DNA of 64,000 bases from Clostridia bacterium (GCA_017625695.1 JAGAKI010000069.1:2228-66227), one strand, 5' to 3'. Numbered from the stretch's first letter, positions 5,119 through 64,000 are shown. A program made the numbers and translations. Notes: a model not told the origin generated them from the sequence alone.

Positions 5119-5330
5119 ACACTTAAAGTGTGCAACGAAAAATCCTGCCGTTCACGTCAGCCGGGTATTTATTAGAACCAACACTTTTTATAAGGGAGCC
5201 AATCTCCTCTCGTCAATTGTAGGCCCACCGCCTTTACGGCCGTATGGGGAACGTGCGACTGAGGGTAAGCACCCACCTGCACATGCAGGTTTCTAATATT
5301 ATCTTGGGGCAACGGTCCGGCGGGTTTTTT
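5119..5330 (+). ncRNA. ssrS: candidate 6S RNA (SsrS-like)
   Basis: About 210-nt non-coding interval. The 5' segment AAAAATCCTGCCGTT...TATTAGAACC is complementary to the 3' segment GGTTTCTAATA...AACGGTCCGGCGGGTTTTTT, giving a long interrupted closing stem. The internal GTAAGCACCCACCTGC resembles my recollection of the CTTACACCCACCTAC stretch of B. subtilis 6S-1. It ends in a T-run. Confidence 0.5.
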
Positions 5331-42722: not shown

Positions 42723-43658
42723 TTATTTTACAGGAACAAACTGATATTCGGTTACGGTTGCCGCAGGATAGAAAGGAGTACCGTTCAGATAGGTCAGAAC
42801 CAAACTTCCGTCTTTCACATCCCAGCGGTAAATACCGTCCACATCTGTGTGAAGCCCCGTAGCGCCAGGCATTTTGGAATCCTGCGTGCTACCGCCAAAC
42901 TCCATGCGAATTCTACCATCAGATATTACCATCCAATGTCCATGGTATGAACCGGTCATTGTTTCACCTTGGAAGGAATACTCTACTCCGTCAGGCGAAA
43001 TGGATAATTTCAAATCAACAACATCACCGTTGAATTCAGAAACCTTACAAACCCAATCTCCGTAAAAATCCCACTCAACCGTAGGATCCCAACCATTAAA
43101 CTGTGCCATCAGCTCATAGGGAGAAAATTCATAAATCTTTTGTTCAGAATTATCCATAGTTCCGTTCTGCAAAGAAAGACAGGGAACAAATTCTGTCACT
43201 GCATCTCCGCTTTTTGCTACAATCATCAGATTTGGCGTAATGTCGCTGATATTGCCACGAACGAGAATCGGTTGCCCGTTTTTCACGGTGATCAGTTGCT
43301 CACCCTTTTGCAAAACGGATTCCGAAGACATTTCTGCTTTATACACACTCAAAGTAACATGTTCGTCGGCGGGAATCACACAATAAAGCTCATTTCCTTC
43401 GTTCTGTATAAACGACTTTTCGGGAATCTCCTGAAGGAACGGATAGTTTTTTACGTATTCCTGTCCGTCAATAAAATTCTGTACTGCGTCATAATCGCCT
43501 TCCACAGTACCAAGATAAGCCACACCGAACGGTTTTTCGGAACCCTGAATCTGATTTCTGATATCAATAAAGTAGGGATTATGATCCAAAGATGCACCGC
43601 AAGCAGTCAATAAACATAAGCACAACAAGATGCAAAACAGTTTTTTCATCTTTCTCAT
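42723..43658 (-). CDS. lipoprotein, function unknown
   Basis: Start moved to ATG 43658. MRKMKKLFCILLCLCLLTAC carries a lipobox (LTAC). Confidence 0.65.
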   Translation of the reverse strand: MRKMKKLFCILLCLCLLTACGASLDHNPYFIDIRNQIQGSEKPFGVAYLGTVEGDYDAVQNFIDGQEYVKNYPFLQEIPEKSFIQNEGNELYCVIPADEHVTLSVYKAEMSSESVLQKGEQLITVKNGQPILVRGNISDITPNLMIVAKSGDAVTEFVPCLSLQNGTMDNSEQKIYEFSPYELMAQFNGWDPTVEWDFYGDWVCKVSEFNGDVVDLKLSISPDGVEYSFQGETMTGSYHGHWMVISDGRIRMEFGGSTQDSKMPGATGLHTDVDGIYRWDVKDGSLVLTYLNGTPFYPAATVTEYQFVPVK

Positions 43659-51900: not shown

Positions 51901-52042
51901 TGGCCAGGGAGCCATAAGTCAATAAGTCCGTATATGATACGGTAATGGTTGTGTCGGTTGCAAAAGCGGGAATTACAAAATTCACTGCCATAACAACCAA
52001 GGTGAGTGCTGTTGAAAGCACTCGTTTCAAATTACGGTTCAT
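48950..52042 (-). CDS. S-layer-type protein: CBM-like modules, Ig-like domains, helical module, three C-terminal SLH domains
   Basis: About 1030 aa. Start set to ATG 52042, 6-7 nt after AAGGAGGA. Signal peptide ...VIPAFA. The C-terminus has three SLH repeats (FDDMEEASWAKDMVHTLVGKGIV.., LTDVAEDHWATSYIATAQNLGII.., FADADAIADYAKAAVLSLEKVGVI..). Confidence 0.8.
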   Translation of the reverse strand: MNRNLKRVLSTALTLVVMAVNFVIPAFATDTTITVSYTDLLTYGSLANRQGELYFDTTSGSLDSTTNNNRAYAPLDVWSNPISRASLNMKAGEWVRFEVTADTAGYYSVDVDASVGATPSAKFYVRTEKSILETDLPKTANQNTFVNATNLGYIYLEEGTNYVYVDHKSTSYVNFRTMTLTLDESVDATVAALVAPIASANEIGDLTVIFNDGYNQADVSNTPLTFPVNIPADGKYKVSVMGITEGSSTVSADFGDDVKTATVSRITKTVKENDVDVEVTTYGYSEIGIFSLTEGEYTLTLDGFSNYSLAWVKVEYVSPYATGVESESFVDGETVTRGTDNLTITFNDTMMAGVEATLTADGAEIPVAVDVDGTKVIVSFLETLSYGTEYLLEVTNLQGINDAEALDDRTYTFTTGDDSADEGIDAVVVSEVESYREAVTIKGTALGSTGHGIKGRTVTVTSPEGDEVETVISGDDGAFTVEFNIADGTAAGAYTYTVTTEYGATTPAVVSYVSEEEELRIIGLFEDATTSDAVYAIFEEYGEVLLVPDYAADCDSLANEDLFLAHFEGKDFAAVREVAPFYGKMLKLEQMNQATTGSYIKSNFLNQADACELIGIASDKLNLVNTDTKKTSFSDKIAEDTRTNGPSTSEEAFLERIATLLDAWILETNGITPTSLDLSDAITSAYYAGEIAIPVDFQNAQTKVKAIEVVVTTEEADLLENAEAVAEDAISNEVVIDGDTATFTIGFAYDETISYDEVGKIALQASVIGTHDIDVEASVIYTFDTGLKDEQNNKIFVDLPISVTGGSITATIRQKPEKPASRPSGSSGGGGYVAPPKEKVEEEDDKQSGYFFDDMEEASWAKDMVHTLVGKGIVSKNDERKFRPMDNITREEVVKMIVTAIGSHDAKAVSNLTDVAEDHWATSYIATAQNLGIIKGNPDGTFGLGQQITRQDLAVMVYRTFQRLGITLAEGKAEFADADAIADYAKAAVLSLEKVGVINGMGENTFAPIANATRAQTAKVIYVMMEVLGI

Positions 52043-52258
52043 AAGCAATCCTCCTTATCTTTTTGCTTGTAATTTGAGATATATAATAAATTTTTATTAG
52101 CAAAATCAGCAATATATAGAAATATAAAATATTTATTTTCAAATTCGGGGTTTCCCGGGCAGAACCTGCATGGGTTCTGCCCGAAAAACATTTGGTAATC
52201 AAATCAATCCTAAGAGGTCATATGCCTTCTTCGTAAGGTTTACTCACAAAGTAAGGAC

Positions 52259-55200
52259 TTAGTCCTGGGGAACATCCAGCATACGCATGGTTCTCCAAGT
52301 GGGATAGGTATCAATGTCTTCTAATCTGGTCTTATCTTCCAGGCCTGCTTCTGCCATAATTTTCTGTGCGGTGGTGTCGTAGCTGGATACTCTGTAGTTG
52401 TTACCTTGCAGAGCAACTTCATTGGTGTTGGTTGCGTTAGATCCATAAATCCTAGCGGGGTTACGACCATCAGTATGATTGTAGCCGGCAAAACAGTTAT
52501 TGATATTTACATACTGTCTTGCAAAGAACCAATAATCGGTGGTGGTAGTATAAGCTTCGGTTACTACGTTATCACAAACGAAAGTGTATCCGGTTCCCTG
52601 GTCGAAGTAGATACCGGGAGCTTTGACCTGACCCGGGTCGATGACATAGTTATCGTTAATCTGAGTGCCTCGGAGATTACCTAAGGTGTAGATATGAGCA
52701 CCGTCACCCATGGTCTGCATTACATCATCAATTTTGTTGTAGGAAATGATGTGGTTACCGCAGTCTGCAGGATCATCATATCCCCAACCCCAACCGATAA
52801 CGATACCGGAATAAGAGGTATCTTTAATATCGTTGTGGTGAATGTTGGCATTGCCCACATAATACACAGAAATTGCGGTTAAGCCCTGGAATTCCTGAGC
52901 AGTACGACGGAAGATGTTGTTATCCACTTCGATGTTCTGGCAACGTTCGGTAGTAGAGGATGCGGCGTTACCGTCTCTGTAGTCACCAAGTACCACGCCG
53001 GTACCGGCAAGATCGTGGAAGTAGCTTCCTGTAATTTGAGAATTGGAAACGCCTTCTTCTAAAATGATGGCGCTGGAGCCCATAGAACCGAATTCACAAT
53101 TCTTAAATACTAAAGAATCTGCATAATTTACCCAAATCTGACCGGGGAAAATGTGGGAACCGTAATAGGTTTCAGAACCAAGTCTCCATTCTTCGGTCTG
53201 GTTGAAGGCTGCACCTTTTACGGTGATATCATCATAACCGCCGTAACGGAATGCGATGCCGTCAAATTCCAGATTGGTTACCTTGTTAGCGGAACCAATA
53301 CCGGTAATGCTCATCATACGGTCAGTGGTTGCACACCAGGTTTCAATGGTGTTCATATCTTCCTGAGCATAGGGGTAATAGTACATTTTGCGAGTTTCTT
53401 TATCGAAGTAGAATTCACCGGGCTGATCCAACAGCAGGAGAGAGTTTTCTAAATAGAAACCTGAACCTGCGGTAGGAGTAATGGTAGAGGTGTGTAATCC
53501 ATCGATACAGAATGCATTGTAGTAAGGATAGGTAGTGTAAATGGATACATTGCCGTTGGTGCTGTTGTATTCAATACTGTCAATGGGGAAACGATGGTTT
53601 GCCCACTGCAGGCTGAATACAATTTGCATTCTGGACTGCTGGGTGGCAGTCTGCTGATCCAATCCTTGGGGGAAATCAGCATTTCCATAGCTGGAAACCA
53701 GAATACCATCCGCTACATGAGCATCGTTTTTCGGTTCAGCAGGAGAAATCTCTACGCCTCTGTACCAACCATCGCTTCTTGCCATGGTTGCCTGATATCC
53801 GTTTACAAACAAGGCTCTGGTTTCACGGGTGGTAGTAGAAGCTACCCAGTAATTTTCACCGTCTACCTTAGTCCATTTACCGGTCAGGTCTTCCCCGCCG
53901 GAAATCACAGGTTTGTTATCGGGATCTTCTGCACGAATGATTACTTTGTGTCCGTTTTTACCGCCCATGGTGGGATCAATTTCGATAGCAACGGAACTTT
54001 TGTAAGTACCGGGAGCAACATTAACGATAATGTCGCCGGTCATATCATTGTTGATGGTTTTTACAATTTTTAATGCATTTGCCAGGTTGTTTACGGGAGC
54101 TTCCTTGGTACCTGCATTGGTAGATTTACCGCCGGTGGAAACATAAATTTCACGGTAAGGCGTTGCGTAAACATCTTTTGCGTAGGGCTTCGCATCATCC
54201 ATATGGGAGAATGTCAGCACTTTTAAAGTGCAGCCCGCACCAAGATTGGTAAAGCTTGCAGTTGCAACATCACCTTCGCGGGTTAATGCGCTGATGGCAA
54301 CTAATTTGTTACCGTTATATACTGCAGCAACCATAGATGTATCGGACGGAATATGCATGCAGTTTGCACTTACATAAGCAGTGCCTGCAGGCAGAGCATC
54401 CACTTCCTGACCGGAAGAATCCTTCACAATAACAGTAGGATCTACGATACATTCGTTGTATGCTTCCAGCATTTCGGCTGCAGTTTCGTATTTCTGTGCC
54501 ACCATCTTCCAGAAGGACATGGGAGCATATACATGGTTTACGGTATCTGCATTCACGTCGATATTGGCTGCTTCACCGTATTGTTCCAGAAGGTCAAATG
54601 CACCTTCTGCAGTGGTAACATTTTCAAAATCATGAATCAGATGGTAAGCCATGGAGTTGGTATCTTCCAAAACAATAGAATCAAAGTAGAAGCTATCGCA
54701 GTAGAATACGAATTTTAAGGTATGGGTACCTGCAGTCAGGTAGAGCTGTGCCACTTCTTCCTGCAGATATGCCCAAGCGGAATCGGTTCTGTCATTCTGG
54801 AAATGCATGGTTAAGTAATCCACAAAAACATCATCCACATAAAGGTCGAAGTTTACATCTTTCCAAGCCGCACCAACCAGATTCAGATTGTAAATGGTGT
54901 CTTCGGAAACTTCTACGGTGTAGCTTGCAATGGATTCGCTCTTAATCGCTAACACATCTTTACCGTTGTAGGTAGCAACATTACCTGCTGTTTCCGCTTC
55001 AATTACGGTGTATAAGTTGGTGTTAGAAACATCGGGAAGTTCCGGAACGGGAGTTGCGGTAGGAGCGGAAGAAGAGCTTCCGGTATCCACCTTTAAGTTT
55101 TGTAAGTTCATCTGGGGACCCCATACTTCGTGGTCTGCCAGACTGTCTTCCCCGTCAGTCATAGAGAGACGCAACGCCGTTAAGGTTGCGATGGAGGAAC

Positions 55201-58000
55201 CTGTATTTTTAATGGTAATCAGGTTAGCCCCTTCTCTTACATACAAAAATTCCATATCCTGCTGGTCGGCATCTGCCCAACAGAAGGAACCGCTGGTTGC
55301 AGGTTTTAAAATTTCTGCATAGAAGCCGGTATCAGAGGTAATTGCAAAGGTGTTTTCTGCAGTGTCTAAAACACCAATGTAGGGATATACGATACCTGCA
55401 CCGTCTGCGGACATGGTTAATTCATAGGTAACAGCTGCGCCGGGAGACAGGTTTACAAAGTTACCGGTATCATTGGTACCGGTCTGATAGGTACCGTCTG
55501 CTTCCACAAAGTTGTGAATATCAGCAACAGAAACGTGCTGTTCACCGTATGCGGTAAATGCAGTTTCAATTTTAGACATATAGGTCATGCCATAACCGTC
55601 TAAAGCAGTAAAGGTAATGTCAGCGGATAAATCAGAGGTGCTCAGTTTATTCACACCTTTGATCATAAACAAATATTTTACAGTACCGCTGCCGGATAAG
55701 GTTGCGGTGGAACCGTTTTCGTTGATTAAAGTAACGGCTCTGTCGGATGCCACACGGTAGATACCTGCGTTTTCAGCAGTGTAGGTAATGGTGCCAACCG
55801 GTGCATAGGTGGGAACCGGAGGCGGAGTGGGTTCAGGCAATTCAACCGCAATGGTTTTTAAGCTTGCTAAGTTCACCTGGGGACCCCATACTGCGTGGTC
55901 TTTGATTGCGGTTTCTGCAGTTTGAGACAGACGCAAAGAAGCAATGGTTGCAGTATTGGAACCGGTATTGGTAATGGTGATTTGGTTTGCACCTTCTCTT
56001 ACATACAAAAATTCCATATCCTGCTGAGCGGAACCGTCTGCCCAGCAAGTACTCTGCCAACCGGTAGCATCTTTGGTAACCTCTGCATAGAAACCGGTAT
56101 CGGAAGTCAGTTCAAAGGTATGCTGATAGCTATCCTGAACATTGATATAAGGATAAACAATCCCTGCACCGGAAGCACTCACGGTTGCAGTTAAGGTTGC
56201 GGATTCGCCGGCACCAAGATACAGCGTACCGTTCGTTGTTTGTGTGTGACTTTCCGCGTAACAAACAGATTGGGTAACAATCTGATCCATATATGCTAAA
56301 CCATTGCCTTCTAAGTTTGTGAAGGTTAGGGTTGCATCAGTGTTAGTGGTTTCAATTTTATTTACACCTGCAATTAAGTAGATGTATTTGGTTTCGCCTG
56401 CCGCTAGCGTTACGGTAGAACCGGTTTCGTTCGTCAAAGTAACCGCTTTGTCGCTCGTTACCTGATGAACACCTGCATAAAGGGCATTGTAGGTAACAAT
56501 GTCGGCCGCAGGAGTCGGTTCGGGGGTGGGCGTCGGATCGGGTTCTGCCACATAGGGAACAACCTTCAAAGATGCCATATTCATCTGGTCTTTCCAGTAA
56601 TCCGCTTCTGCTAAAACGCCGGTGGTACAAATTTTAACAGCGTACAAGCTAACAGAGGAAGTACCAATATTTTCAATGGTGATTTCCTGTTCACCGTCTC
56701 TTACATAGAGCATTTCAGGATCCTGACGGCCTGCATCTGCCCATGCAGAAGAACTATAGTTAGCAGCAAAATAAATGTCTGCATAGTAGCCGGTATCGGT
56801 GGTCACTCTTACAGTGTTGCCTGCACCGGATGCAGGAGCAATGTAGGGATACACCAAACCTGCATTGATTACATTCGGAGTGTAGGTTGCGGTGTATTTC
56901 TGACCGGGATCCAACGTTACATTGGCAAAGCCGGCAATGGTATCGCCGGTATCGCCGGGAAGAATGGGCTCTTCGGTCATCGTAACTTCGCTGATGTAAT
57001 CTAAACCGTTGCCATCTAATTCGGTTACGGTTAAGGTGATAGTAGTATCAGTGGTTTCAATAATGTTTTCACCTGCGATCAGGTAGAAGTAATCGGTAGC
57101 ACCTGCTGCTAAAGTAACGGTGTGACCGGTTTCGTTGGTCAAGGTTACCGCTTTGTCGCTCGTTACCTGATACACACCTGCATAAGGAGCAGTATAGGTG
57201 ATGGTGGGAGTGGGTTCGGGAGTTGCTTCGGGTTCTGCCACATACGGAACCACTTTCAGAGATGCCATATTCATCTGGTCTTTCCAGTAATTCGCTTCCG
57301 CTAAAACGCCGGTCGTACGAATGCCAACAGAATACAGCGTAACAGAGGAATTACCAATATTTTCAATGGTAATTTCCTGTGCGCCGTCTCTTACATAGAG
57401 CATTTCAGGATCCTGACGGGCTGCATCTGCCCATGCGGAAGAGCTGTAGTTGTAATCCAGATAAACATCTGCATAGTAACCGGTATCTGTGGTTACTCTA
57501 ACAGTGTTGCCTGCACCAACAGCAGGAGCAATGTAGGGATATACCAAACCTGCACTAATTACATTCGGAGTGTAGGTTGCAGTGTATTTCTGACCGGGAG
57601 CTAAAGTCACGTTACTAAAGCCGGCAACGGTATCACCGGTATCGCCGGGAAGAATAGGCTCATTGGTCATTGTAACTTGGCTGATGGAATCCAAACCGTT
57701 TCCGTCTAATGCGGTAAAGGTCAGGTTTGCGGATGCACTGCTTTTGGTAAGATTGTTGTTGCCTTGAATCAGGTAGAAGTAATCACTAATACCTGCTTTT
57801 AAGGTAACGGTATGCCCGGTTTCGTTGGTCAAGGTAACTGCTTTATCAGAAGTTACCTGATACACACCTGCATAAGGTGCATCGGTGTACGAGATGATTT
57901 CACTTGCTGCTGCAGTCATTGGTATCAACGCTACCAATAGGCTGCTCATCATGGTGCAAACCACAAGGAATGAAAGTAGTTTTTTAAAGCTTGTTTGCAT
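52259..58000 (-). CDS. giant secreted protein: 4 x about 230-aa CBM-like repeats + CBM-like module + helical module + Ig-like + right-handed beta-helix C-terminal domain (paralog 1)
   Basis: 1913 aa with RBS AAGGAGGG and signal peptide ...LIPMTAAAS. Beta-helix-type repeats with HHNDI, GWGWG and VDNNIFRR blocks. Confidence 0.8.
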   Translation of the reverse strand: MQTSFKKLLSFLVVCTMMSSLLVALIPMTAAASEIISYTDAPYAGVYQVTSDKAVTLTNETGHTVTLKAGISDYFYLIQGNNNLTKSSASANLTFTALDGNGLDSISQVTMTNEPILPGDTGDTVAGFSNVTLAPGQKYTATYTPNVISAGLVYPYIAPAVGAGNTVRVTTDTGYYADVYLDYNYSSSAWADAARQDPEMLYVRDGAQEITIENIGNSSVTLYSVGIRTTGVLAEANYWKDQMNMASLKVVPYVAEPEATPEPTPTITYTAPYAGVYQVTSDKAVTLTNETGHTVTLAAGATDYFYLIAGENIIETTDTTITLTVTELDGNGLDYISEVTMTEEPILPGDTGDTIAGFANVTLDPGQKYTATYTPNVINAGLVYPYIAPASGAGNTVRVTTDTGYYADIYFAANYSSSAWADAGRQDPEMLYVRDGEQEITIENIGTSSVSLYAVKICTTGVLAEADYWKDQMNMASLKVVPYVAEPDPTPTPEPTPAADIVTYNALYAGVHQVTSDKAVTLTNETGSTVTLAAGETKYIYLIAGVNKIETTNTDATLTFTNLEGNGLAYMDQIVTQSVCYAESHTQTTNGTLYLGAGESATLTATVSASGAGIVYPYINVQDSYQHTFELTSDTGFYAEVTKDATGWQSTCWADGSAQQDMEFLYVREGANQITITNTGSNTATIASLRLSQTAETAIKDHAVWGPQVNLASLKTIAVELPEPTPPPVPTYAPVGTITYTAENAGIYRVASDRAVTLINENGSTATLSGSGTVKYLFMIKGVNKLSTSDLSADITFTALDGYGMTYMSKIETAFTAYGEQHVSVADIHNFVEADGTYQTGTNDTGNFVNLSPGAAVTYELTMSADGAGIVYPYIGVLDTAENTFAITSDTGFYAEILKPATSGSFCWADADQQDMEFLYVREGANLITIKNTGSSIATLTALRLSMTDGEDSLADHEVWGPQMNLQNLKVDTGSSSSAPTATPVPELPDVSNTNLYTVIEAETAGNVATYNGKDVLAIKSESIASYTVEVSEDTIYNLNLVGAAWKDVNFDLYVDDVFVDYLTMHFQNDRTDSAWAYLQEEVAQLYLTAGTHTLKFVFYCDSFYFDSIVLEDTNSMAYHLIHDFENVTTAEGAFDLLEQYGEAANIDVNADTVNHVYAPMSFWKMVAQKYETAAEMLEAYNECIVDPTVIVKDSSGQEVDALPAGTAYVSANCMHIPSDTSMVAAVYNGNKLVAISALTREGDVATASFTNLGAGCTLKVLTFSHMDDAKPYAKDVYATPYREIYVSTGGKSTNAGTKEAPVNNLANALKIVKTINNDMTGDIIVNVAPGTYKSSVAIEIDPTMGGKNGHKVIIRAEDPDNKPVISGGEDLTGKWTKVDGENYWVASTTTRETRALFVNGYQATMARSDGWYRGVEISPAEPKNDAHVADGILVSSYGNADFPQGLDQQTATQQSRMQIVFSLQWANHRFPIDSIEYNSTNGNVSIYTTYPYYNAFCIDGLHTSTITPTAGSGFYLENSLLLLDQPGEFYFDKETRKMYYYPYAQEDMNTIETWCATTDRMMSITGIGSANKVTNLEFDGIAFRYGGYDDITVKGAAFNQTEEWRLGSETYYGSHIFPGQIWVNYADSLVFKNCEFGSMGSSAIILEEGVSNSQITGSYFHDLAGTGVVLGDYRDGNAASSTTERCQNIEVDNNIFRRTAQEFQGLTAISVYYVGNANIHHNDIKDTSYSGIVIGWGWGYDDPADCGNHIISYNKIDDVMQTMGDGAHIYTLGNLRGTQINDNYVIDPGQVKAPGIYFDQGTGYTFVCDNVVTEAYTTTTDYWFFARQYVNINNCFAGYNHTDGRNPARIYGSNATNTNEVALQGNNYRVSSYDTTAQKIMAEAGLEDKTRLEDIDTYPTWRTMRMLDVPQD
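55076..57898 (-). repeat. intragenic array of four about 230-245-aa repeats; units 1-2 nearly identical
   Basis: YAGVYQVTSDKAVTLTNETGHTVTL recurs at aa 43 and 273 (manual count). Nucleotide blocks around 57230-57320 and 56540-56630 are almost the same. Confidence 0.85.
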
Positions 58001-58061
58001 GTTTTGAACCCTCCTTAAGATGTAAAAACACAGTAGATTGCGCGGGGTTTTATTTTTTTGT

Positions 58062-58097
58062 TTCCGGAATATGCCAATTCTTTGGCATATTCCGGAA
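58062..58097. other. perfect 16-bp inverted repeat hairpin between paralogs 1 and 2
   Basis: TTCCGGAATATGCCAA-ttct-TTGGCATATTCCGGAA. T-runs flank it on the plus strand only. Confidence 0.8.
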
Positions 58098-58111
58098 TAT
58101 TTTTATTGCAA

Positions 58112-61100
58112 TTATTCGTCTGCGGGAACGTCCAGCATACGCATGGTTCTCCAGGACGGATAGTAATCCACGTTCTGAAGTTCCGTCTGATTGTCAACAC
58201 CTGCTTCAGACATAATTCTCTGTGCAGATAAAGACCAGCTGGTAACATTTACGTTATTGTTTTCCATGGTCACAGCATTGCTTGCGAAACCGTAAGAACC
58301 GTTTGCAGAAGGCATCGGACCGTCAGTGTGGTTATAAGAACCGTAACAGTCTGCAATGTCAACATATCTTCTTGCAAACAACCAACGGTCGTCGGAAGCT
58401 TTTGCATCGGTGAACACGTTATCGCTGAAGTACAGATCCTGAGTTGCCTGGTCAAGGTACAGACCGCTCTTTAACAGATTACCCGGGTCGATAAAGTAGT
58501 TATCGTTAATCTGGTTGTAGCCCTGCAAACCAACGGTGTAGATATGAGAACCATCATTCATAGTCTGCATTACATCTTCAATCTTATTGTAAGCCACAAC
58601 GTTGTTTCCGCAATCGTCGGGTAATGCTGCACCCCAGCCCCAACCAACGGAAATACCGGTGTAGGGCATATCTGCGATGTCATTGTGATGAACTTTGGAA
58701 TCACCGGTGTAGTACATTGCTATTGCGGTGGTACCTAAGAATTCCTGTGCACAACGGCGGAAGATGTTGTTGTCTACTTCAATATGGGTAGAACGCTGTT
58801 TATCGGTAGACATATTCACATCGTGTAAGAAGTTTCCGACTACAACACCGGTACCGGAAATATCGTGGAAGGAGCTTCCGGTTACACGGCAGTTGGTGTC
58901 CCCTTCTTCAAAGAGAACTGCACTGGAGCCTAAGTTTGCAAATTCACAGTTTTTAAATACTACGCTATCAGCATAGTTTAAGGTAACCTGTGCAGGGAAC
59001 ATATAGCTTCCGTACCAGATTTCGCCGCCTAAACGGAGTTCGTCTGCCTGGTTGAAAGCTGCACCGTTGGTGGTAGCATCATCATAAGCACCGTGCTGGA
59101 AGGAAATACCGTCAAATTCGATGTTTGATACCTTGTTGGTAGCGCTAACACCGGTAATAGTCATCAGACCATCGGTTACTGCACAGAAGGTTTCTGCAGT
59201 GTTCATGTTTTCTTCCGGATAAGGATAGTAATACATCTTACGATTGGTTTTATCGAAGAAGAATTCACCGGGTTCATCTAAAAGATCCATAGAGTTTTCT
59301 AAGTAGAAGGAACCGGTAGGCTGAATGGTAGTGGTGGTAGCATCATCATTTAAGAAGATGTGGTATCTGGGGAACGGAATGTATACATATGCGTATTCAT
59401 AACCGTAGTAATCAGCATAGACTACTTTTTCCACAGGGAAACGATGGTTTGCCCAGTTTTTCTGGAATACTACCTGAAGTCTGGTATCGTCAGCTAAGGT
59501 TCTGGGGAAGTCGGTATCCCACTGTTCAATATTAACCAGGAAGCCGTCTGCAACATGCACATCATTTACCGGACTTTCGGGAGTAATGACATCATCAGCA
59601 ATATACCAGCCGCTGCTTCGTGCCATAGTTGCCTGATAGCCGTTTACATATAATGCTCTGGTTTCACGGGTGGTGGTAGATGCTACCCAGTAATCTTCGC
59701 CGGAAACCTTAGACCATTTACCGGTTAAGGGTTCCCCACCGGATAAAATGGGACGGTTGTTGGGATCCTCTGCTTTGATGATAACTTTGTAACCGTTCAT
59801 ACCGCCCATGTTCTGGTCAATTGCGATGGTGGTATTGCTGCGGTAGGTACCGGGAGCAATGTGCACCACGATATCGCCGGTCATGGTGGTATTGTATGCT
59901 TTAACCTTGGTTAATGCCTGAGCGAGGGTTGCCACGGGAGTTTCCGGAGTCAGACCGTCGTTGGAGGATTTACCGGTCGTTGCTACATAAATATCTTTAT
60001 AAACACCAACAGAATAGTAGGGTTTTGCTTCTTCCATATCGGAGAACACCATAATTTTTACCTGGCTCTGGGTGGTTAAACCGGTTAAGGTACAGGTAAC
60101 GGTGGTGGAGGTGCTCTTTAAGGTGTTTAAGTTGCCTGCCATTTTGCTTCCCTGATATTCTGCCACAACAATGGTAGAATTTGCAGGCATATTGGAGGTG
60201 TTGATAATCAGTCTTGCAGTGCCGGTAGGTAAGCTGCTTACCGGAGTGTTGGAAGAATTGTATAACTTCACAGTGGGGCTGGAAGCCTCGGTGGAAATGA
60301 TGGAGTTATAAGTGGAAAGCATATCATCTAAAGATTCAAAATCCTTGCCAACCATGGGCCAGAAGGACATCTGGGGATAGAAGATATTTGCAGTATCATT
60401 TACCACGTTGATGCCAAGCAGGGAGCCATATTCCACTAAAAGATTGTATGCTTCCTGAGAGGTGGTGGCATCTTTGAAGCCATATAACAGGTGATAGGTT
60501 CTGCTGCTGGTGTTTTCCAGACGGAAATCATCAAAGTAGAACACATCACAGAAATAGGTAAACTGAAGGGTATGAGTACCTGCAGTTAAATTCATGGAGT
60601 AGATTTTTTCAGTCTGCAGCGGATAGGAATCTTCTTTATGCAGATTGAAATGCATGGTTTCGTAAGACAAATAGGTTTCGTCAACGGTGATGTCTACGGA
60701 AACGTCTTTCCATGCAGCACCTCTTAAATACAGGTTATACACACCGGTATCAGGAACGGTAATGGTATAAGTAGAGGTGGATTCGTTGGTAGCGGTAATA
60801 ACTGTCGCACCGCCGTGAGATCCCTGAGTGGTACCGCTCTGAGAGGTGTAGCTTTCTGCTTCGGTAATAATCATATATTCAGAATCGGTGATGTTGGGAG
60901 TTGCAGTGGGAGTGGGAGTTACCACAGGTTCTGCCGGCATGGAAGATACCGGTTTTACAAAGCTGATATAAGACATGGAGTCATATCCGGTGGCATTTAA
61001 ATAACCGTAATCTATGGTAGATAAAATCACCGAATTAGCACCAATATTTTTTAAGGTAAAGGTATTTGCACCTTCGGTAAAGTACATGGGCTGGTCAATC

Positions 61101-62710
61101 TGAACACCATCCTGATTGGTCCAGCCGGTGGCGGTCAGATTAAAGTCCGCATAGTAATCACCTGCGATCATACGAACGGTGGTGGGACTGCTGATAGAAG
61201 CAACTTCCAGCTGAACACCGTAAACACCGCTGTAAGGTGCGTTGAAAGTGTAAGTTCCCCATTCACCGTTCGCCATGGTGAAACTATCGCCGTTGATATG
61301 GTTGCTCTGTGCGTAATATTCACCGCTGAAGCTGGTTGCGGGCACTTCACCGCTGTAACCGCCAAATGCAGGTTCTAATTTTACGTTACCAATCCAGGTG
61401 GTTACCTGAGTGGGAGTAGAAGTGGGAGTAGGAGTTGCGGTAGGAGTAGCAGTAGGTGCTACGGTAGGAGTCGGAGTTGCGGTGGGAGTTGCAGTAGGTG
61501 CCACGGTAGGAGTCGGAGTCGGGGTGGGAGCAACTGCAAATTTTACAAATTCCAGATAATCCAGAGTTTTGTCTGCACCGGAAGCATCCAGTCTTCCGAA
61601 GTCGATGGAAGAAACGGTTGCATTGTAATCACCGCGTAATTCTAATTTAAAGGTGTTAGTGCCTTCTTTTAAGTAGATAGGCTGGTCCTGTAAACAACCG
61701 GAGCTCCATCCCATGGTGGTCACGGCATATTCTGCACCGTATCCATCTTCAGTGGTCACATACCAGTTTACGGGAGTACCGTTGGACCATTCGGTGCGGA
61801 TCTGCATTGCATACACACCGGTATAAGGCATATCCACAGTGATATATGCCCAGTCCCCTTTTACCATGGTAAAGGCACCGTTTGCAGCAAAGGGAGCACC
61901 GGAGGTTGCCTGATAGTCAGTACCTGCAACAGCAGCATCACCGTTACGGATTGCACCTTTAATGTTTTCCACGGTAGAAGTATAACCGTTTTTATAAGTC
62001 TCCGGCAAATCCCCATAGGCACCGGGCCAGGTTAAGGGAGCCTCGGTGGGAGTGGGAGTTTCGGTAGGTTCGGGAGTTTCAGTCGGTTCCGGAGTTGCGG
62101 TAGGTTCCGGTAAATCAGCAGTCTGTTTTACCAGAGGCAGGAAATCCAAAGAAGATTCTGCGCCCTGAGCATCCAGACGGCCTAAGTCCCAAGCACCTAA
62201 CATCGCATTGCCGGGACCAATACATTCAATGGTAATGATATTGGTACCTTCCTCCAGATAGAGGGGCTGGTCCTGTAAACAACCGGAGCTCCAGCTGGTG
62301 TCGGTAATGCTGTAGTCTGCATAGTAGCCATGTTCGGTGGTTACACGGTAGCCGGTAGAAGAACCGCTATACCAGTCGGTGCGAAGCTGGAATGCATACA
62401 CGCCGGTATAGGGCACTGTGAGTTCATATTTGCCCCAGTTCCCCACAACCATAACGAACTCGCCGTTGGCGCCAAAGGGAGAGGATGAGGTTGCAACATA
62501 GTCGGTGCCGGCTACGGAAGATCCGTCAGCACCGCTTTTGGTAAAAGTAGTCATAGCGTAATGTTCGCCCACATAACCGTTGGTATAACCGGCTAAATCG
62601 CCGAATTTACCGGTCCAGGTGGGAGCCGCACTTACGGGGAATGTCATCATACTGCCAATCATCGCAATCAGCAGGCAGATAGATAGCAGCTTTCTGAATT
62701 CGATTTTCAA
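58112..62710 (-). CDS. giant secreted protein: 3 x about 170-190-aa CBM-like repeats with PT linkers + shared central and beta-helix modules (paralog 2)
   Basis: Start moved to TTG 62710, 7 nt after AAGGAGGA, giving the signal peptide (M)KIEFRKLLSICLLIAMIGSMMTFPVSA. The C-terminal about 630 aa is collinear with paralog 1. Confidence 0.8.
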   Translation of the reverse strand: MKIEFRKLLSICLLIAMIGSMMTFPVSAAPTWTGKFGDLAGYTNGYVGEHYAMTTFTKSGADGSSVAGTDYVATSSSPFGANGEFVMVVGNWGKYELTVPYTGVYAFQLRTDWYSGSSTGYRVTTEHGYYADYSITDTSWSSGCLQDQPLYLEEGTNIITIECIGPGNAMLGAWDLGRLDAQGAESSLDFLPLVKQTADLPEPTATPEPTETPEPTETPTPTEAPLTWPGAYGDLPETYKNGYTSTVENIKGAIRNGDAAVAGTDYQATSGAPFAANGAFTMVKGDWAYITVDMPYTGVYAMQIRTEWSNGTPVNWYVTTEDGYGAEYAVTTMGWSSGCLQDQPIYLKEGTNTFKLELRGDYNATVSSIDFGRLDASGADKTLDYLEFVKFAVAPTPTPTPTVAPTATPTATPTPTVAPTATPTATPTPTSTPTQVTTWIGNVKLEPAFGGYSGEVPATSFSGEYYAQSNHINGDSFTMANGEWGTYTFNAPYSGVYGVQLEVASISSPTTVRMIAGDYYADFNLTATGWTNQDGVQIDQPMYFTEGANTFTLKNIGANSVILSTIDYGYLNATGYDSMSYISFVKPVSSMPAEPVVTPTPTATPNITDSEYMIITEAESYTSQSGTTQGSHGGATVITATNESTSTYTITVPDTGVYNLYLRGAAWKDVSVDITVDETYLSYETMHFNLHKEDSYPLQTEKIYSMNLTAGTHTLQFTYFCDVFYFDDFRLENTSSRTYHLLYGFKDATTSQEAYNLLVEYGSLLGINVVNDTANIFYPQMSFWPMVGKDFESLDDMLSTYNSIISTEASSPTVKLYNSSNTPVSSLPTGTARLIINTSNMPANSTIVVAEYQGSKMAGNLNTLKSTSTTVTCTLTGLTTQSQVKIMVFSDMEEAKPYYSVGVYKDIYVATTGKSSNDGLTPETPVATLAQALTKVKAYNTTMTGDIVVHIAPGTYRSNTTIAIDQNMGGMNGYKVIIKAEDPNNRPILSGGEPLTGKWSKVSGEDYWVASTTTRETRALYVNGYQATMARSSGWYIADDVITPESPVNDVHVADGFLVNIEQWDTDFPRTLADDTRLQVVFQKNWANHRFPVEKVVYADYYGYEYAYVYIPFPRYHIFLNDDATTTTIQPTGSFYLENSMDLLDEPGEFFFDKTNRKMYYYPYPEENMNTAETFCAVTDGLMTITGVSATNKVSNIEFDGISFQHGAYDDATTNGAAFNQADELRLGGEIWYGSYMFPAQVTLNYADSVVFKNCEFANLGSSAVLFEEGDTNCRVTGSSFHDISGTGVVVGNFLHDVNMSTDKQRSTHIEVDNNIFRRCAQEFLGTTAIAMYYTGDSKVHHNDIADMPYTGISVGWGWGAALPDDCGNNVVAYNKIEDVMQTMNDGSHIYTVGLQGYNQINDNYFIDPGNLLKSGLYLDQATQDLYFSDNVFTDAKASDDRWLFARRYVDIADCYGSYNHTDGPMPSANGSYGFASNAVTMENNNVNVTSWSLSAQRIMSEAGVDNQTELQNVDYYPSWRTMRMLDVPADE
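60944..62626 (-). repeat. intragenic array of three diverged CBM-like repeats separated by Pro/Thr linkers
   Basis: Recurring PYTGVYA(F/M)Q(L/I)RT..., SSGCLQDQP(L/I)YL(E/K)EGTN and GRLDA(Q/S)GA blocks. Confidence 0.8.
61430..61513 (-). repeat. 42-bp x 2 tandem duplication inside the PT linker
   Basis: GGAGTTGCGGT(A/G)GGAGT(A/T)GCAGTAGGTGC(T/C)ACGGTAGGAGTC occurs twice back to back, encoding PTVAPTATPTATPT x 2. Confidence 0.9.
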
Positions 62711-62788
62711 TGATAAGTCCTCCTTCAAACGATAATCGTTTGTATTTTATATGCCGGACAAAGATTAGCAGGTCCGGACAGTTCAGTA

Positions 62789-64000
62789 CTAATCAATAAT
62801 TGCATCTGCAGGAAGGTTAAACATGGGAAGAGTACGCCAGGAAGGATAGTAACTCACGTCTGCTACTCTGGTCTTGTCTTCTACACCTGCTTCTGCCATA
62901 ATTCTCTGCGCTGTCGTTTTCCAGGATGTCTGATTGATATAGTTGGTTGCGTAGGTTACACCGGAGGTATCCAAGGGGAAGGTAGCGAATGATTTGGGAT
63001 TACCACCATCAGTATGGTTATATGCGACATAGTTATCATTTAAGTTGACACGTCTTCTTGCAAAGAGCCAAAAGTCACCAGACTGATTTGCCTGCTGTAT
63101 CACGTTGTCAGTCATAGAAATATAACCGGTTGCTTCGTCAAAGTAAACACCGCCACGACGATAATTACCCGGATCAATTAAGTAGTTGTCGTTTAAGTGC
63201 ATGTTCTTCTGGTCGCCTAAAGTGTAAATCTGTGCACCGTCGTCTAACACCTGACAAACCTCTTCAATCTTATTGTAGGAAACAATGTGATTGCCGGTGT
63301 CGTTAGGTTCATAGTAACCCCAGCCCCAACCGATGGAAATACCGGTGTAAGGCAGATATTTGATATCGTTGTGATGAACGTTTGCAGAATCCACATAGTA
63401 AACTGCAACTGCAGGCAGATTCATAAATTCCTGCGCCACACGGCGGAAAATGTTGTTTCCGATTTCAATGTTCTTACAACGGACACCGCCGCCGTAGTTA
63501 CTGTTGTGCAAGTAGTTGGAAACGGAGACGCCTCCGCCGGAGATATCGCGGAAATCACAATTGATAACCTTGGAGTTGGTAACACCTTCCACCAGATACA
63601 TTGCGCTGGAGCCAAGCTCTGCAAATTCACAACCGTCAAACACCAAGGAATCTGCGTAGCTTGCTACAATCTGTGCATGCATCAAATGCTGAGAATAACC
63701 GGTTTCGGTACCGCGGCGGAGTTCGTCTGCCTGATTGTATGCTGCACCATAGGTGGTGGCTTCATCCCAGGCACCGTGACGGAAAGAAACATTCTTAAAT
63801 TCCAGATTTTCCACACGGTTGGAGATATTAGCACCCTGAATGTTCAATAAACCGTCGGTTACTGCACAGTAGGTTTCTGCAGTGGTCATATCCTCATTGG
63901 CATAAGGATAATAATACATTTTGCGGTTGGCTTTGTCAAAATAGAATTCGCCGGGTCTGTCTAAGAGCGCCATTGCGTTTTCCAAGTAGAAGCCTCTGCC
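62789..64000 (-). CDS. beta-helix C-terminal domain of a third paralog (5' part outside window)
   Basis: The reading frame stays open to the window edge (...GRGFYLENAMALLDRPGEFYFDKANRKMYYYPY...). Collinear with the C-terminal 400 aa of paralogs 1 and 2. Confidence 0.8.
   Translation of the reverse strand, partial: GRGFYLENAMALLDRPGEFYFDKANRKMYYYPYANEDMTTAETYCAVTDGLLNIQGANISNRVENLEFKNVSFRHGAWDEATTYGAAYNQADELRRGTETGYSQHLMHAQIVASYADSLVFDGCEFAELGSSAMYLVEGVTNSKVINCDFRDISGGGVSVSNYLHNSNYGGGVRCKNIEIGNNIFRRVAQEFMNLPAVAVYYVDSANVHHNDIKYLPYTGISIGWGWGYYEPNDTGNHIVSYNKIEEVCQVLDDGAQIYTLGDQKNMHLNDNYLIDPGNYRRGGVYFDEATGYISMTDNVIQQANQSGDFWLFARRRVNLNDNYVAYNHTDGGNPKSFATFPLDTSGVTYATNYINQTSWKTTAQRIMAEAGVEDKTRVADVSYYPSWRTLPMFNLPADAIID

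What the first reader, a model, noticed from the sequence alone, without database searches (positions are those of the whole stretch)
52259..64000. Three tandem giant paralogs share a beta-helix 'business end' but carry swapped N-terminal CBM-like arrays
Three consecutive minus-strand genes end in the same C-terminal module of about 630 aa.
- Shared blocks: (D/E)IYV(S/A)T(G/T)GKS(T/S)N...(A/T)PV, WVASTTTRETRAL(F/Y)VNGYQATMARS, PGEF(Y/F)FDK..RKMYYYPY, (V/I)(D/G)NNIFRR, HHNDI, (I/V)GWGWG, YN(K)I(D/E)(D/E)V, DG(A/S)(H/Q)IYT. The repeat pattern is typical of a right-handed parallel beta-helix (pectate-lyase fold).
- Paralogs 1 and 2 also share a central CBM-like module (..EAE.. / LTAGTHTL(K/Q)F.(F/Y)(Y/F)CD.FYFD), a helical module and an Ig-like module.
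- Their N-termini differ completely: four repeats of about 230 aa in one, three unrelated repeats of about 180 aa with PT linkers in the other.
- I found no SLH, LPXTG, dockerin or other recognised anchor, and could not assign the beta-helix to a named GH or PL family by eye.
This looks like a diversifying family in which one catalytic or binding scaffold is re-targeted by exchangeable binding arrays. It is my best candidate for an undescribed enzyme or adhesin family in this window.
Basis: partly seen in the sequence, partly recalled or inferred. Interest (0 to 1): 0.85.

Follow-up and report, generated by a model that had tools for sequence, protein, structure and literature searches.

The report
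Tandem GH141 glycosidases with CBM arrays
Three neighbouring giant genes of an uncultured ruminant-gut Clostridia bacterium encode secreted sugar-cleaving enzymes of the already known family GH141, each carrying a different string of related carbohydrate-binding-type modules, so this is an unusual new example of a known enzyme family, not a new family.

Summary
Three consecutive minus-strand genes (1913 aa, 1532 aa, and a third cut by the window end, 1667 aa in the source contig) share a C-terminal beta-helix module. That module is not unassignable: it is glycoside hydrolase family GH141. It passes both relevant Pfam cut-offs, matches the founding enzyme BT1002 (PDB 5mqp) at E=1.7e-39 over nearly its full length, and keeps both catalytic Asp residues and the active-site Gln. 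The shared region is about 930 aa (CBM6, a putative helical module, a putative Ig-like module, GH141), not 630. The N-terminal arrays are not unrelated. All contain one ~130-aa beta-sandwich module ("B") with no Pfam model and a CBM6/CBM35-like predicted fold; the arrays grew by internal duplication. In the 1913-aa protein each B carries an extra ~90-aa subdomain. The gene order recurs in other ruminant-gut genomes, with the repeats as conserved as the catalytic module, so they are not hypervariable. The cluster is larger than reported: two upstream B-array proteins without a catalytic domain, then an SLH-anchored protein sharing modules, a 930-aa unknown protein and a cytoplasmic GH89. Elsewhere B is fused to alkaline phosphatases and GDSL esterases. 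The substrate is unknown. Verdict: new members of a known kind, moderate interest.

The parts
52259..58000 (-). Paralog 1 (p1), 1913 aa. It equals NCBI MBO5409115.1, 'right-handed parallel beta-helix repeat-containing protein [Clostridia bacterium]'. It is a secreted multimodular GH141 enzyme.
   Evidence: ORF and translation. AAGGAGG lies 8 nt before the ATG. Exact cluster look-up. Pfam GH141_M and Beta_helix.
57902..58000 (-). p1 signal peptide (aa 1-33, ...MTAAA|SE)
   Evidence: Read directly from the sequence: a basic n-region, a hydrophobic core and an AxA site. No signal-peptide predictor was available.
55031..57901 (-). p1 N-terminal array of four A+B repeats (aa 34-258, 259-497, 498-737, 738-990). 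Each repeat is a ~90-aa A subdomain plus a ~133-aa B module, joined by short Pro/Thr linkers.
   Evidence: Segment BLAST, alignment A1 and B HMM hits at E 1e-52 to 1e-58. The AF2 model of repeat 1 has pLDDT 84.3 and pTM 0.83 and is almost all-beta.
54611..55030 (-). p1 central CBM6-type module (aa 991-1130)
   Evidence: Pfam CBM_6 gives E=1.6e-4 and 22.4 bits over profile positions 14-122 of 125, below the 28.9-bit cut-off. The equivalent module of a p2-type GH141 protein (P0080; its 90%-identity cluster includes MBE7019163.1) passes the cut-off at 33 bits.
54161..54610 (-). p1 putative helical module (aa 1131-1205) and putative Ig-like module (aa 1206-1280). Both are shared with p2, p3 and the upstream non-catalytic proteins.
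   Evidence: Conserved between paralogs at 31-41% identity. No Pfam or PDB sequence match. The fold labels are by eye only and were not modelled.
52262..54160 (-). p1 GH141 catalytic module (aa 1281-1913). The candidate catalytic residues are D1766 (codon 52703-52705) and D1800 (52601-52603). The active-site Gln is Q1601 (53198-53200).
   Evidence: phmmer against PDB 5mqp BT1002, E=1.7e-39. Pfam hits. D486, D520 and Q321 of the module are invariant in 19 GH141 homologues including BT1002. The roles of BT1002 D523 and D564 are from the literature.
58062..58097 (.). Perfect 16-bp-stem palindromic hairpin in the 111-nt p2-p1 spacer
   Evidence: On the coding (minus) strand it is followed by an A-rich tract, not a U-tract. 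It may be an mRNA-stabilising or weak terminator element. Function was not tested.
58112..62710 (-). Paralog 2 (p2), 1532 aa from TTG 62710. It has a signal peptide, three B-type repeats, CBM6-type, putative helical and putative Ig-like modules, and GH141. The candidate catalytic residues are D1392 and D1426 in ORF numbering from 62728 (codons 58553-58555 and 58451-58453).
   Evidence: RBS; the exact 1532-aa gene call is on 5 contigs.
60893..62623 (-). p2 array of three B-type repeats (62111-62623, 61541-62017, 60893-61396) separated by Pro/Thr linkers
   Evidence: B HMM at E 4e-50, 8e-47 and 1e-45. The linkers appear as short DNA tandem repeats at 61408-61530 and 62043-62110. The AF2 model of repeat 1 has pLDDT 59.5, and its PDB fold hits are CBM6/35/36/61.
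58115..60004 (-). p2 GH141 catalytic module
   Evidence: Pfam Beta_helix 39.5 bits and GH141_M 33.5 bits. It is 58% identical to the p1 module.
62789..64000 (-). Paralog 3 (p3), last 403 aa only. This covers most of the GH141 module, with candidate catalytic Asp codons at 63239-63241 and 63137-63139. The full protein is 1667 aa in the source contig.
   Evidence: The window fragment is identical to L001:209-5212 residues 1266-1667. Full architecture: signal peptide, a CBM35-like module (sub-threshold, E=2.8e-3), three B repeats, then the shared ~930 aa.
48950..52042 (-). Downstream SLH-anchored surface protein (1030 aa). Its N-terminal module is homologous to the first module of p3, and it also has a B-like module, Big_5 and three SLH repeats.
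   Evidence: Pfam SLH E=8.9e-27 and Big_5. B HMM E=1.7e-6 at about aa 86-191. BLAST to p3 residues 1-165 gives 30% identity, E=5e-12.
46161..48953 (-). 930-aa secreted protein with no family match. Its start overlaps the stop of the SLH gene by 4 nt.
   Evidence: It is conserved in position in L004 and L005 but only 46-66% identical.
43774..45957 (-). GH89 alpha-N-acetylglucosaminidase homologue (727-aa gene call) without a signal peptide
   Evidence: Pfam NAGLU_N, NAGLU and NAGLU_C, E down to 3e-83. N-terminus read. Syntenic and 88-90% identical in L004 and L005.

Best explanation
The three genes are tandem paralogs encoding secreted, multimodular glycoside hydrolases of CAZy family GH141. 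They belong to an uncultured spore-forming Clostridia (Oscillospiraceae-like) bacterium of the ruminant gut.

Shown:
- Each protein has a Sec-type signal peptide and an N-terminal array of 3-4 beta-sandwich modules of one family ('B', CBM6/CBM35-like in predicted fold) joined by Pro/Thr linkers.
- A conserved ~930-aa block follows: a CBM6-type module, a putative helical module, a putative Ig-like module and a GH141 beta-helix catalytic module.
- The catalytic module keeps the two Asp residues and the Gln of the BT1002 active site.

Inferred:
- The GH141 module hydrolyses a glycosidic bond in a complex polysaccharide through the conserved Asp pair.
- The arrays give multivalent binding that holds the enzyme on an insoluble glycan or a surface. 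Differences between arrays would give the three enzymes different targeting.
- The arrays arose by internal duplication of a shared ancestral module, not by acquisition of unrelated modules.
- The genes belong to a conserved cluster of at least 8 genes: two non-catalytic B-array proteins, the three GH141 enzymes, an SLH-anchored protein sharing modules, a 930-aa unknown protein and a cytoplasmic GH89. This looks like a Gram-positive surface glycan-degradation locus.

The substrate is not determined. The active-site residues resemble BT1002 and Xyn141E (pectin side chain, xylan), not the sulfated-fucan endo-fucanase branch.
For: GH141 membership:
- Pfam GH141_M (35.4, 33.5 and 32.9 bits against a cut-off of 27) and Beta_helix are above cut-off in all three proteins.
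- phmmer against BT1002 gives E=1.7e-39 over query 4-532 and chain 26-581.
- D486, D520 and Q321 of the module are invariant across 19 homologues including BT1002. BT1002 D523 and D564 are essential for activity.
- 60 homologues carry GH141 Pfam domains, many with CBM6, CBM35, ricin, discoidin or SLH.

The B module:
- B modules are homologous across paralogs.
- The B-only model's PDB hits are almost all CBM6, CBM35, CBM36 or CBM61 (prob 1.0, TMt 0.45-0.57).
- The B profile hits residues 427-531 of CITase 5x7g at E=6e-5.
- The central module passes the CBM_6 cut-off in a p2-type homologue.

Secretion and context:
- Signal peptides and ribosome-binding sites were read.
- The locus is syntenic in the L004 (roe deer rectum MAG) and L005 MAGs. 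Repeats there are 55-90% and GH141 82-89% identical to the window copies.
- The cluster extension is shown, and module sharing with the SLH protein.
Against: - No enzymatic or binding data exist for these proteins or any close relative.
- GH141 specificity cannot be read from sequence. Known activities are an alpha-L-fucosidase acting on an RG-II side chain, an endo-xylanase and endo-fucanases.
- The B module fails the Pfam CBM_6 and CBM_35 models. hhalign of B against the central CBM6-type module is not significant.
- The B-only model is of low confidence (pLDDT 59.5), and the fold matches have modest TM-scores.
- B occurs on alkaline phosphatases, which is unusual for a substrate-targeting CBM and fits a surface-retention role at least as well.
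- The adjacent GH89 lacks a signal peptide, and its link to the GH141 enzymes rests on synteny only.
Confidence: 0.8

Rival explanations
1. The enzymes are GH141 hydrolases, but the N-terminal B arrays are not substrate-targeting CBMs. Instead they retain the proteins at the cell surface. They would bind the producer's own wall polysaccharide or S-layer, or partner proteins such as the neighbouring SLH protein. This would replace the missing SLH, LPXTG or dockerin anchor.
For: - p1-p3 and the upstream array proteins have no recognised anchor.
- The same module is fused to alkaline phosphatases and GDSL esterases. The common need of such enzymes is retention near the cell.
- None of the 36 B-bearing representatives has an SLH domain at E<=1e-5, as expected if B substitutes for one.
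- An SLH-anchored protein sharing the B-like, first-module and putative helical regions is encoded next door.
Against: - The fold and remote sequence matches are to soluble-glycan-binding CBM6 and CBM35 modules.
- Copies within one array are strongly diverged (18-58% identical). This fits distinct ligand preferences better than a uniform wall anchor.
- GDSL/SGNH esterases and GH141 are both polysaccharide-active, so co-occurrence is also explained by a shared plant or host glycan target.
- There is no direct evidence for binding to the producer's own cell wall.
Confidence: 0.25
2. The proteins are non-enzymatic adhesins or structural surface proteins. The beta-helix would be a binding scaffold, as the first reader proposed as an alternative.
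For: - The proteins are very large, repetitive and secreted.
- Two upstream paralogs have the arrays plus the CBM-like, putative helical and putative Ig-like modules but no catalytic domain. A purely binding role therefore exists within the cluster.
- The best Foldseek match of the A+B repeat is a Bacteroides surface glycan-binding protein (7kwb, E=1.4e-4).
Against: - Both catalytic Asp residues and the active-site Gln are invariant in all three paralogs and across distant GH141 homologues.
- The GH141 module is the best-conserved part between paralogs (56-58%) and among orthologues (82-89%).
- Every characterised GH141 is an enzyme.
Confidence: 0.05
3. The beta-helix module belongs to a new, undescribed GH or PL family that merely shares the pectate-lyase-like fold.
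For: - Identity to BT1002 is only ~29%.
- The close subfamily (>50% identity) is a small group from metagenomes.
Against: - Sequence-level homology to BT1002 is far beyond fold resemblance (E=1.7e-39 over ~530 residues).
- The family-specific GH141_M insertion domain is present above its cut-off.
- The catalytic residues are conserved.
- The two first-characterised GH141 members share only 20.7% identity with each other, so 29% lies well inside the family.
Confidence: 0.03

Closest known systems
BT1002 (BT_1002), Bacteroides thetaiotaomicron; founding GH141 enzyme; PDB 5mqp
   Same: - The right-handed beta-helix catalytic domain and the inserted beta-sandwich (GH141_M) match at E=1.7e-39 over ~530 residues.
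- The Asp pair (D523, D564) and Q336 equivalents are conserved.
   Different: - BT1002 is a ~620-aa single-module enzyme of a Gram-negative RG-II utilisation locus. The present proteins are 1532-1913 aa with N-terminal module arrays and come from a Gram-positive-type Clostridia.
- Identity is only ~29%.
- The present modules have ~100 extra C-terminal residues beyond the aligned region.
- Whether the specificity is the same is unknown.
Xyn141E (Cthe_2195), Acetivibrio thermocellus; GH141 endo-xylanase
   Same: - It is a Firmicutes GH141 joined to a CBM6.
- It is encoded in a cluster with other modular polysaccharide-active enzymes.
- The catalytic Asp pair is conserved.
   Different: - The order is GH141, then CBM6, then dockerin, with the binding and anchoring modules C-terminal and assembly into a cellulosome. 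Here the arrays are N-terminal and there is no dockerin.
Wf141_1/2/4, Wenyingzhuangia fucanilytica; GH141 endo-fucanases (PMC12786026)
   Same: The family and fold are the same, and several GH141 genes lie in one degradation cluster.
   Different: The residues reported as typical of the fucanase branch are absent. These are Trp at the BT1002-Q336 position and Arg two residues before the second catalytic Asp. Here they are Gln and Tyr, as in BT1002 and Xyn141E.
CBM35 / CBM6 carbohydrate-binding modules (for example the CBM35 inserted in cycloisomaltooligosaccharide glucanotransferase 5x7g, or the CBM6 of CtXyl5A 5la2)
   Same: - The B module is a beta-sandwich of similar size.
- Its best PDB fold matches are CBM6 and CBM35.
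- The B profile hits 5x7g residues 427-531 at E=6e-5.
- The central module matches Pfam CBM_6.
   Different: - B is not detected by Pfam CBM_6, CBM_35 or CBM_35_2.
- B is a small, distinct sequence family: 37 representatives at E<=1e-10 among 1.84 billion.
- In p1 it is fused to an extra ~90-aa subdomain.
- Its ligand is unknown.
Surface glycan-binding proteins (SGBPs) of Bacteroidota polysaccharide utilisation loci
   Same: - Non-catalytic multi-domain beta-sandwich proteins are encoded beside the glycosidases (the upstream 1141-aa and 1450-aa proteins).
- The top Foldseek hit of the A+B repeat is SGBP-B 7kwb.
   Different: - There is no lipoprotein anchor and no SusC/D system.
- The organism is Gram-positive-type.
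- The similarity is weak (TM ~0.3) and only functional by analogy.

Membership tests
CAZy GH141 | Significant sequence similarity to a characterised family member across the catalytic domain | tested here: met
   phmmer against BT1002 (5mqp) gives E=1.7e-39 and 139 bits, covering query 4-532 of 633 and chain 26-581 of 624.
CAZy GH141 | Right-handed parallel beta-helix with the family-specific inserted beta-sandwich (Pfam GH141_M) | tested here: met
   GH141_M scores 35.4, 33.5 and 32.9 bits (cut-off 27). Beta_helix scores 31.3, 39.5 and 27.6 bits (cut-off 25.9). These are for p1, p2 and the p3 fragment.
CAZy GH141 | Conserved catalytic Asp pair (BT1002 D523 and D564; Xyn141E D540 and D577) | tested here: met
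   The pair aligns with p1 D1766 and D1800, and the equivalent Asp is present in p2 and p3. Both are invariant in a 19-sequence alignment that includes BT1002.
CAZy GH141 | Glycoside hydrolase activity | not testable with these tools
   Needs recombinant protein and substrate screening.
CAZy GH141 | Assignment by the curated CAZy, dbCAN or CUPP models, including subfamily | not tested
   No dbCAN or CUPP tool was available. Pfam and PDB comparisons were used instead.
GH141 endo-fucanase branch (CUPP GH141*6) | Trp at the BT1002-Q336 position and Arg close to the second catalytic Asp (xRxDx), with an electropositive cleft | tested here: not met
   The position is Gln in all three paralogs (invariant Q321). 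The residue two before the second Asp is Tyr (YFD, YLD, YFD). Electrostatics were not modelled.
CBM6 (central module) | Match to the family model over its full length | tested here: inconclusive
   The p1 copy gives Pfam CBM_6 E=1.6e-4 and 22.4 bits, below the 28.9-bit cut-off, over profile positions 14-122 of 125. The equivalent module of the p2-type homologue P0080 scores 33 bits, above the cut-off, over positions 1-124 of 125.
CBM35 / CBM6 superfamily (repeated B module) | Match to the family sequence models | tested here: not met
   B repeats give no Pfam CBM_6, CBM_35 or CBM_35_2 hit even at E<=10. hhalign against the central CBM6-type module gives a probability of 1.4%.
CBM35 / CBM6 superfamily (repeated B module) | Beta-sandwich fold of the CBM6/35 type and remote homology to a solved member | tested here: inconclusive
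   The Foldseek top 50 hits are dominated by CBM6, CBM35, CBM36 and CBM61 (prob 1.0, TMt 0.45-0.57), but the model's pLDDT is only 59.5. The B profile hits 5x7g residues 427-531 at E=6e-5. That this region is the enzyme's CBM35 is my recollection and was not checked.
CBM35 / CBM6 superfamily (repeated B module) | Carbohydrate binding | not testable with these tools
   Needs binding assays.
Known Gram-positive surface anchors or cellulosome components (SLH, dockerin, LPXTG, CWB2, LysM) | Presence of the anchor domain in p1-p3 | tested here: not met
   No such Pfam hit at E<=0.1 in p1, p2 or the p3 fragment. SLH is present only in the neighbouring 1030-aa protein. The N-terminal ~1260 aa of p3, outside the window, were not scanned as a whole protein.

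The most novel reading that the evidence does not exclude
The B module would define a new, lineage-restricted branch or family of CBM35-like modules. The whole cluster of at least 8 genes would then be a previously undescribed Gram-positive surface glycan-capture and degradation system. Its parts would be two non-catalytic B-array proteins, three GH141 enzymes, an SLH-anchored protein sharing the modules and a 930-aa unknown protein. In this reading, anchor-less enzymes and binding proteins are organised at the cell surface through the shared B or putative helical modules, as a functional analogue of SGBPs and PULs or of cellulosomes but without cohesin-dockerin pairs. The GH141 modules would carry a specificity not yet known in the family.
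Probability: 0.2. Interest if true: 0.6.

Novelty: new member of a known kind. Interest (0 to 1): 0.3.

Why it matters
- GH141 has more than a thousand sequences, but the only characterised members I found are BT1002, Xyn141E and the Wenyingzhuangia endo-fucanases, covering three very different activities. A clade expanded to at least four copies in one ruminant-gut genome is a reasonable target for finding a further specificity relevant to fibre or host-glycan breakdown in the ruminant hindgut. A 2023 review stated that reported GH141 numbers do not exceed two genes per genome.
- The repeated B module escapes Pfam. It is found on GH141, alkaline phosphatase and GDSL esterase proteins and on large proteins with no recognisable catalytic domain. 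Defining its ligand would annotate a set of otherwise 'dark' giant proteins.
- None of this changes current concepts. It is an addition to a known family with a known design principle, a catalytic module plus CBM arrays.

Tried and rejected
- First look-up of p2 from an ATG-start guess (window:58112-62650) found nothing. The recorded gene starts at TTG 62710.
- Word-indexed homology search with the repeat alignment returned only 8 short N-terminal fragments of orthologues. The exhaustive HMMER scan was needed to see the family.
- Foldseek with the two-subdomain A+B model gave only weak, mixed beta-sandwich or cupin hits with TM ~0.3. This was not used for a family assignment.
- hhalign of B against the central CBM6-type module was not significant. 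I therefore do not claim sequence-level homology between them.
- The putative helical and Ig-like region has no PDB or Pfam match. The fold labels remain unverified.
- NCBIfam gave nothing useful.
- The literature has nothing on PDB 9rx2, the second-best PDB hit, titled 'parallel beta-helix repeat protein'.
- The promoter and terminator scan found no more sites than in shuffled sequence. The operon structure is therefore undetermined.
- Hypervariable or 'diversifying' arrays were considered and rejected. Orthologue identity of the repeats is comparable to that of the catalytic module.
- The weak SPP1_Dit, Cupin and Fn3 Pfam hits in the p1 repeats are partial and below cut-off, so I treated them as noise. 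The A-type region does score above the SPP1_Dit cut-off in two other proteins (P0098, P0088), but only over about 44 profile positions.

Full report
**What is in the sequence.**
The region holds three consecutive minus-strand ORFs:
- p1, 52259-58000, 1913 aa.
- p2, 58112-62728. The most likely start is TTG at 62710, 8 nt after AAGGAGG, which gives the 1532-aa product that is recorded on five contigs.
- p3, which runs off the window. Only its last 403 aa are visible.

The exact p1 protein is on record on 7 metagenomic contigs and as NCBI MBO5409115.1, 'MAG: right-handed parallel beta-helix repeat-containing protein [Clostridia bacterium]'. The source contig (ENA ERZ28654447, label XIEF21, scaffold_351, 94 kb) gives full-length p3 at 1667 aa. 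All three proteins begin with a typical Sec signal peptide, read directly from the sequence. Each gene has its own AAGGAGG ribosome-binding site.

**The beta-helix module is GH141.**
- Pfam finds the family-specific GH141_M insertion domain and the Beta_helix region above their curated cut-offs in all three proteins.
- The last 633 aa of p1 match the founding GH141 enzyme BT1002 (PDB 5mqp) at E=1.7e-39, covering query 4-532 and chain 26-581 of 624.
- BT1002 D523 and D564 are reported as essential for activity, and the equivalent residues are conserved in the xylanase Xyn141E. After correcting the +5 offset of the PDB chain index, they align with p1 D1766 and D1800.
- These Asp residues, and the Gln equivalent to BT1002 Q336, are invariant in an alignment of 19 homologues that includes BT1002.
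- The residues described for the endo-fucanase branch are absent. These are Trp at the Gln position and Arg two residues before the second Asp. Here they are Gln and Tyr.
- The two first-characterised GH141 enzymes share only 20.7% identity. The ~29% identity to BT1002 therefore lies comfortably within the family.

The 'purely structural adhesin' alternative is disfavoured by the conserved catalytic residues.

**Anatomy of the rest.**
Segment-wise BLAST shows that the region common to all three paralogs is about 930 aa, not 630. It comprises:
- A CBM6-type module. The p1 copy scores 22.4 bits against Pfam CBM_6, below the cut-off but over the full profile length. The equivalent module of the p2-type homologue P0080 passes at 33 bits.
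- A ~75-aa putatively helical stretch and a ~75-aa putatively Ig-like stretch. Neither matches any family, and neither was modelled.
- The GH141 module.

The N-terminal arrays are as follows:
- p1 has four repeats (aa 34-258, 259-497, 498-737, 738-990).
- p2 has three repeats, at about aa 36-206, 238-396 and 445-612 in ORF numbering.
- p3 has a sub-threshold CBM35-like first module followed by three repeats.

Contrary to the finding, these repeats are homologous:
- p1 segments hit p2 and p3 repeats at E 1e-4 to 2e-11.
- A joint alignment has invariant Gly, Trp, Asp and Tyr columns.
- An HMM of the ~133-aa core ('B') detects every in-window copy at E<=1e-45.

In p1 each B module is preceded by an extra ~90-aa 'A' subdomain.

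The pairwise identities show how the arrays formed:
- p1 clade: 38-87%.
- p2/p3 clade: 31-54%, with p3 repeats 2 and 3 at 98%.
- Between the two clades: 18-28%.

This pattern indicates growth by internal tandem duplication and divergence, not insertion of unrelated modules.

**What the B module is.**
- The AF2 model of p1 repeat 1 (A+B) is confident (pLDDT 84.3, pTM 0.83) and almost all-beta. Its PDB fold matches are weak and mixed. The best is the Bacteroides surface glycan-binding protein SGBP-B, and CBM6- and CBM35-containing enzymes also appear.
- A B-only model (p2 repeat 1) is of lower confidence (pLDDT 59.5). Its PDB matches are almost exclusively CBM6, CBM35, CBM36 and CBM61 modules (prob 1.0, TMt 0.45-0.57).
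- A profile of the seven in-window B modules hits residues 427-531 of cycloisomaltooligosaccharide glucanotransferase 5x7g at E=6e-5. From memory, this is that enzyme's inserted CBM35.
- Pfam CBM models do not detect B, and hhalign against the central CBM6-type module is not significant.

I therefore call B a divergent CBM6/CBM35-superfamily-like module. Family membership is unproven and the ligand is unknown.

**Distribution and partners.**
An exhaustive HMMER scan of 1.84 billion representative proteins finds 90 proteins with B at E<=1e-3 and 37 at E<=1e-10. Among 36 of the best:
- 6 carry GH141.
- 4 carry an alkaline phosphatase domain.
- 4 carry a GDSL/SGNH esterase domain.
- 2 carry CBM6.
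- None has SLH.
- Most have no recognisable catalytic domain.

B is thus a small, portable module family. One further GH141+B protein (MBO5408568.1, 1224 aa) appears to come from the same MAG as p1, judging from the neighbouring accession series and identical organism label. It lies next to a gene with a fucose-isomerase C-terminal domain and AraC- and MarR-type regulators. This is a weak hint towards fucose-type sugars for that paralog.

**Genomic context.**
The gene order p3-p2-p1-SLH protein-930-aa protein-GH89 recurs in two other MAGs, L004 (roe deer rectum) and L005. Per-domain orthologue identities are:
- Repeats: 55-90%, median about 84%.
- GH141 module: 82-89%.
- GH89: 88-90%.
- SLH protein and 930-aa protein: only 46-66%.

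The arrays are therefore stable in number and show no general acceleration, although single repeats fall to 55-65% in L005. The fast-evolving components are the SLH protein and its translationally coupled partner.

Upstream of p3 the source contig encodes a 1141-aa and a 1450-aa secreted protein. Both are made of B modules plus a C-terminal CBM-like, putative helical and putative Ig-like block, and both end where the GH141 module would begin. The SLH protein shares the first module of p3 (30% identity, E=5e-12) and contains a B-like module at E=1.7e-6. The GH89 has no signal peptide.

**Interpretation.**
The best-supported reading (about 0.8) is a tandem trio of secreted multimodular GH141 glycosidases. 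Their CBM-type arrays provide multivalent attachment, and they sit in a larger conserved surface glycan-degradation cluster of an uncultured ruminant-gut Clostridia.
- Shown: family membership, conserved catalytic residues, module homology and duplication history, synteny, and the partner-domain census.
- Inferred: catalysis, glycan binding by B, co-function of the cluster, and the habitat.

The habitat inference rests on the record title of L004 and on the XIEF21 label, which I take to be the Xie et al. ruminant GI-tract MAG study.

The fusions to alkaline phosphatases and the absence of any other anchor suggest this. A non-enzymatic adhesin and a new GH or PL family are both unlikely.

**Novelty and score.**
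This is a new set of members of a known family, with the familiar 'catalytic module plus CBM array' design. The unusual points are:
- The size and number of the arrays.
- At least four GH141 genes in one genome.
- Catalytic-domain-less paralogs next door.
- A Pfam-invisible CBM35-like module that is also fused to phosphatases.

These are of moderate interest to CAZyme specialists. Interest is 0.3.

Noticed in passing
L008:1142-4567 and L008:1-916 (source contig, upstream of p3; outside the window): Two further large secreted proteins (1141 aa and 1450 aa) have no Pfam hit. They consist of B-type modules plus a CBM-like, putative helical and putative Ig-like C-terminal block, and they end where the GH141 module would start. 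They are catalytic-domain-less paralogs of the three enzymes.
   Followed up: partly
window 48950-52042 (-) and 46161-48953 (-): The SLH-anchored protein and the 930-aa unknown protein have a 4-nt start/stop overlap. They are only 46-66% identical to their orthologues in L004 and L005, whereas the flanking GH141 and GH89 genes are 82-90% identical. These two are the fast-evolving parts of the cluster, possibly because they are surface-exposed.
   Followed up: partly
window 43774-45957 (-): A GH89 (NAGLU-type alpha-N-acetylglucosaminidase) without a signal peptide is conserved in synteny with the cluster. It hints at an alpha-GlcNAc-containing oligosaccharide being imported, but the link is unproven.
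   Followed up: no
window 58062-58097: A perfect 16-bp-stem palindromic hairpin lies between p2 and p1. A second GC-rich hairpin follows the p1 stop at about 52158-52187. Neither has a clear U-tract on the coding strand.
   Followed up: no
proteins P0081, P0082, P0088, P0089 (loci L013, L014): B-module arrays are fused to alkaline phosphatase domains, and in P0082 also to a GDSL esterase (2191 aa). P0082 comes from the same XIEF21 metagenome series (L013) and from another ENA metagenome (L014); the sources of the other three were not looked up beyond 'ENA'. This is an unusual combination of a phosphatase with CBM-like arrays.
   Followed up: partly
L011:8795-12469 and neighbours: A fourth GH141+B protein (MBO5408568.1) lies beside a gene with a fucose-isomerase C-terminal domain, a xylose-isomerase-like TIM-barrel gene and AraC- and MarR-type regulators. 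I take it to be from the same MAG as p1, from the accession series. CotJ spore-coat genes nearby suggest a spore former.
   Followed up: no
window 5139-5330 (+): A 6S RNA (SsrS) gene matches Rfam RF00013 at 83.2 bits, full length. There are no tRNA genes in the window.
   Followed up: no
window 42723-43658 (-): A 311-aa predicted lipoprotein (lipobox LLTAC) with no family match lies directly downstream of the GH89 gene. It is conserved in position in the related contigs L001 and L002.
   Followed up: no
L001:1442-2425 (p3 repeats 2 and 3, outside the window): Two adjacent B repeats, including their Pro/Thr linkers, are 94-99% identical at the protein level. This is either a very recent duplication or a possible assembly collapse or expansion point.
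   Followed up: no
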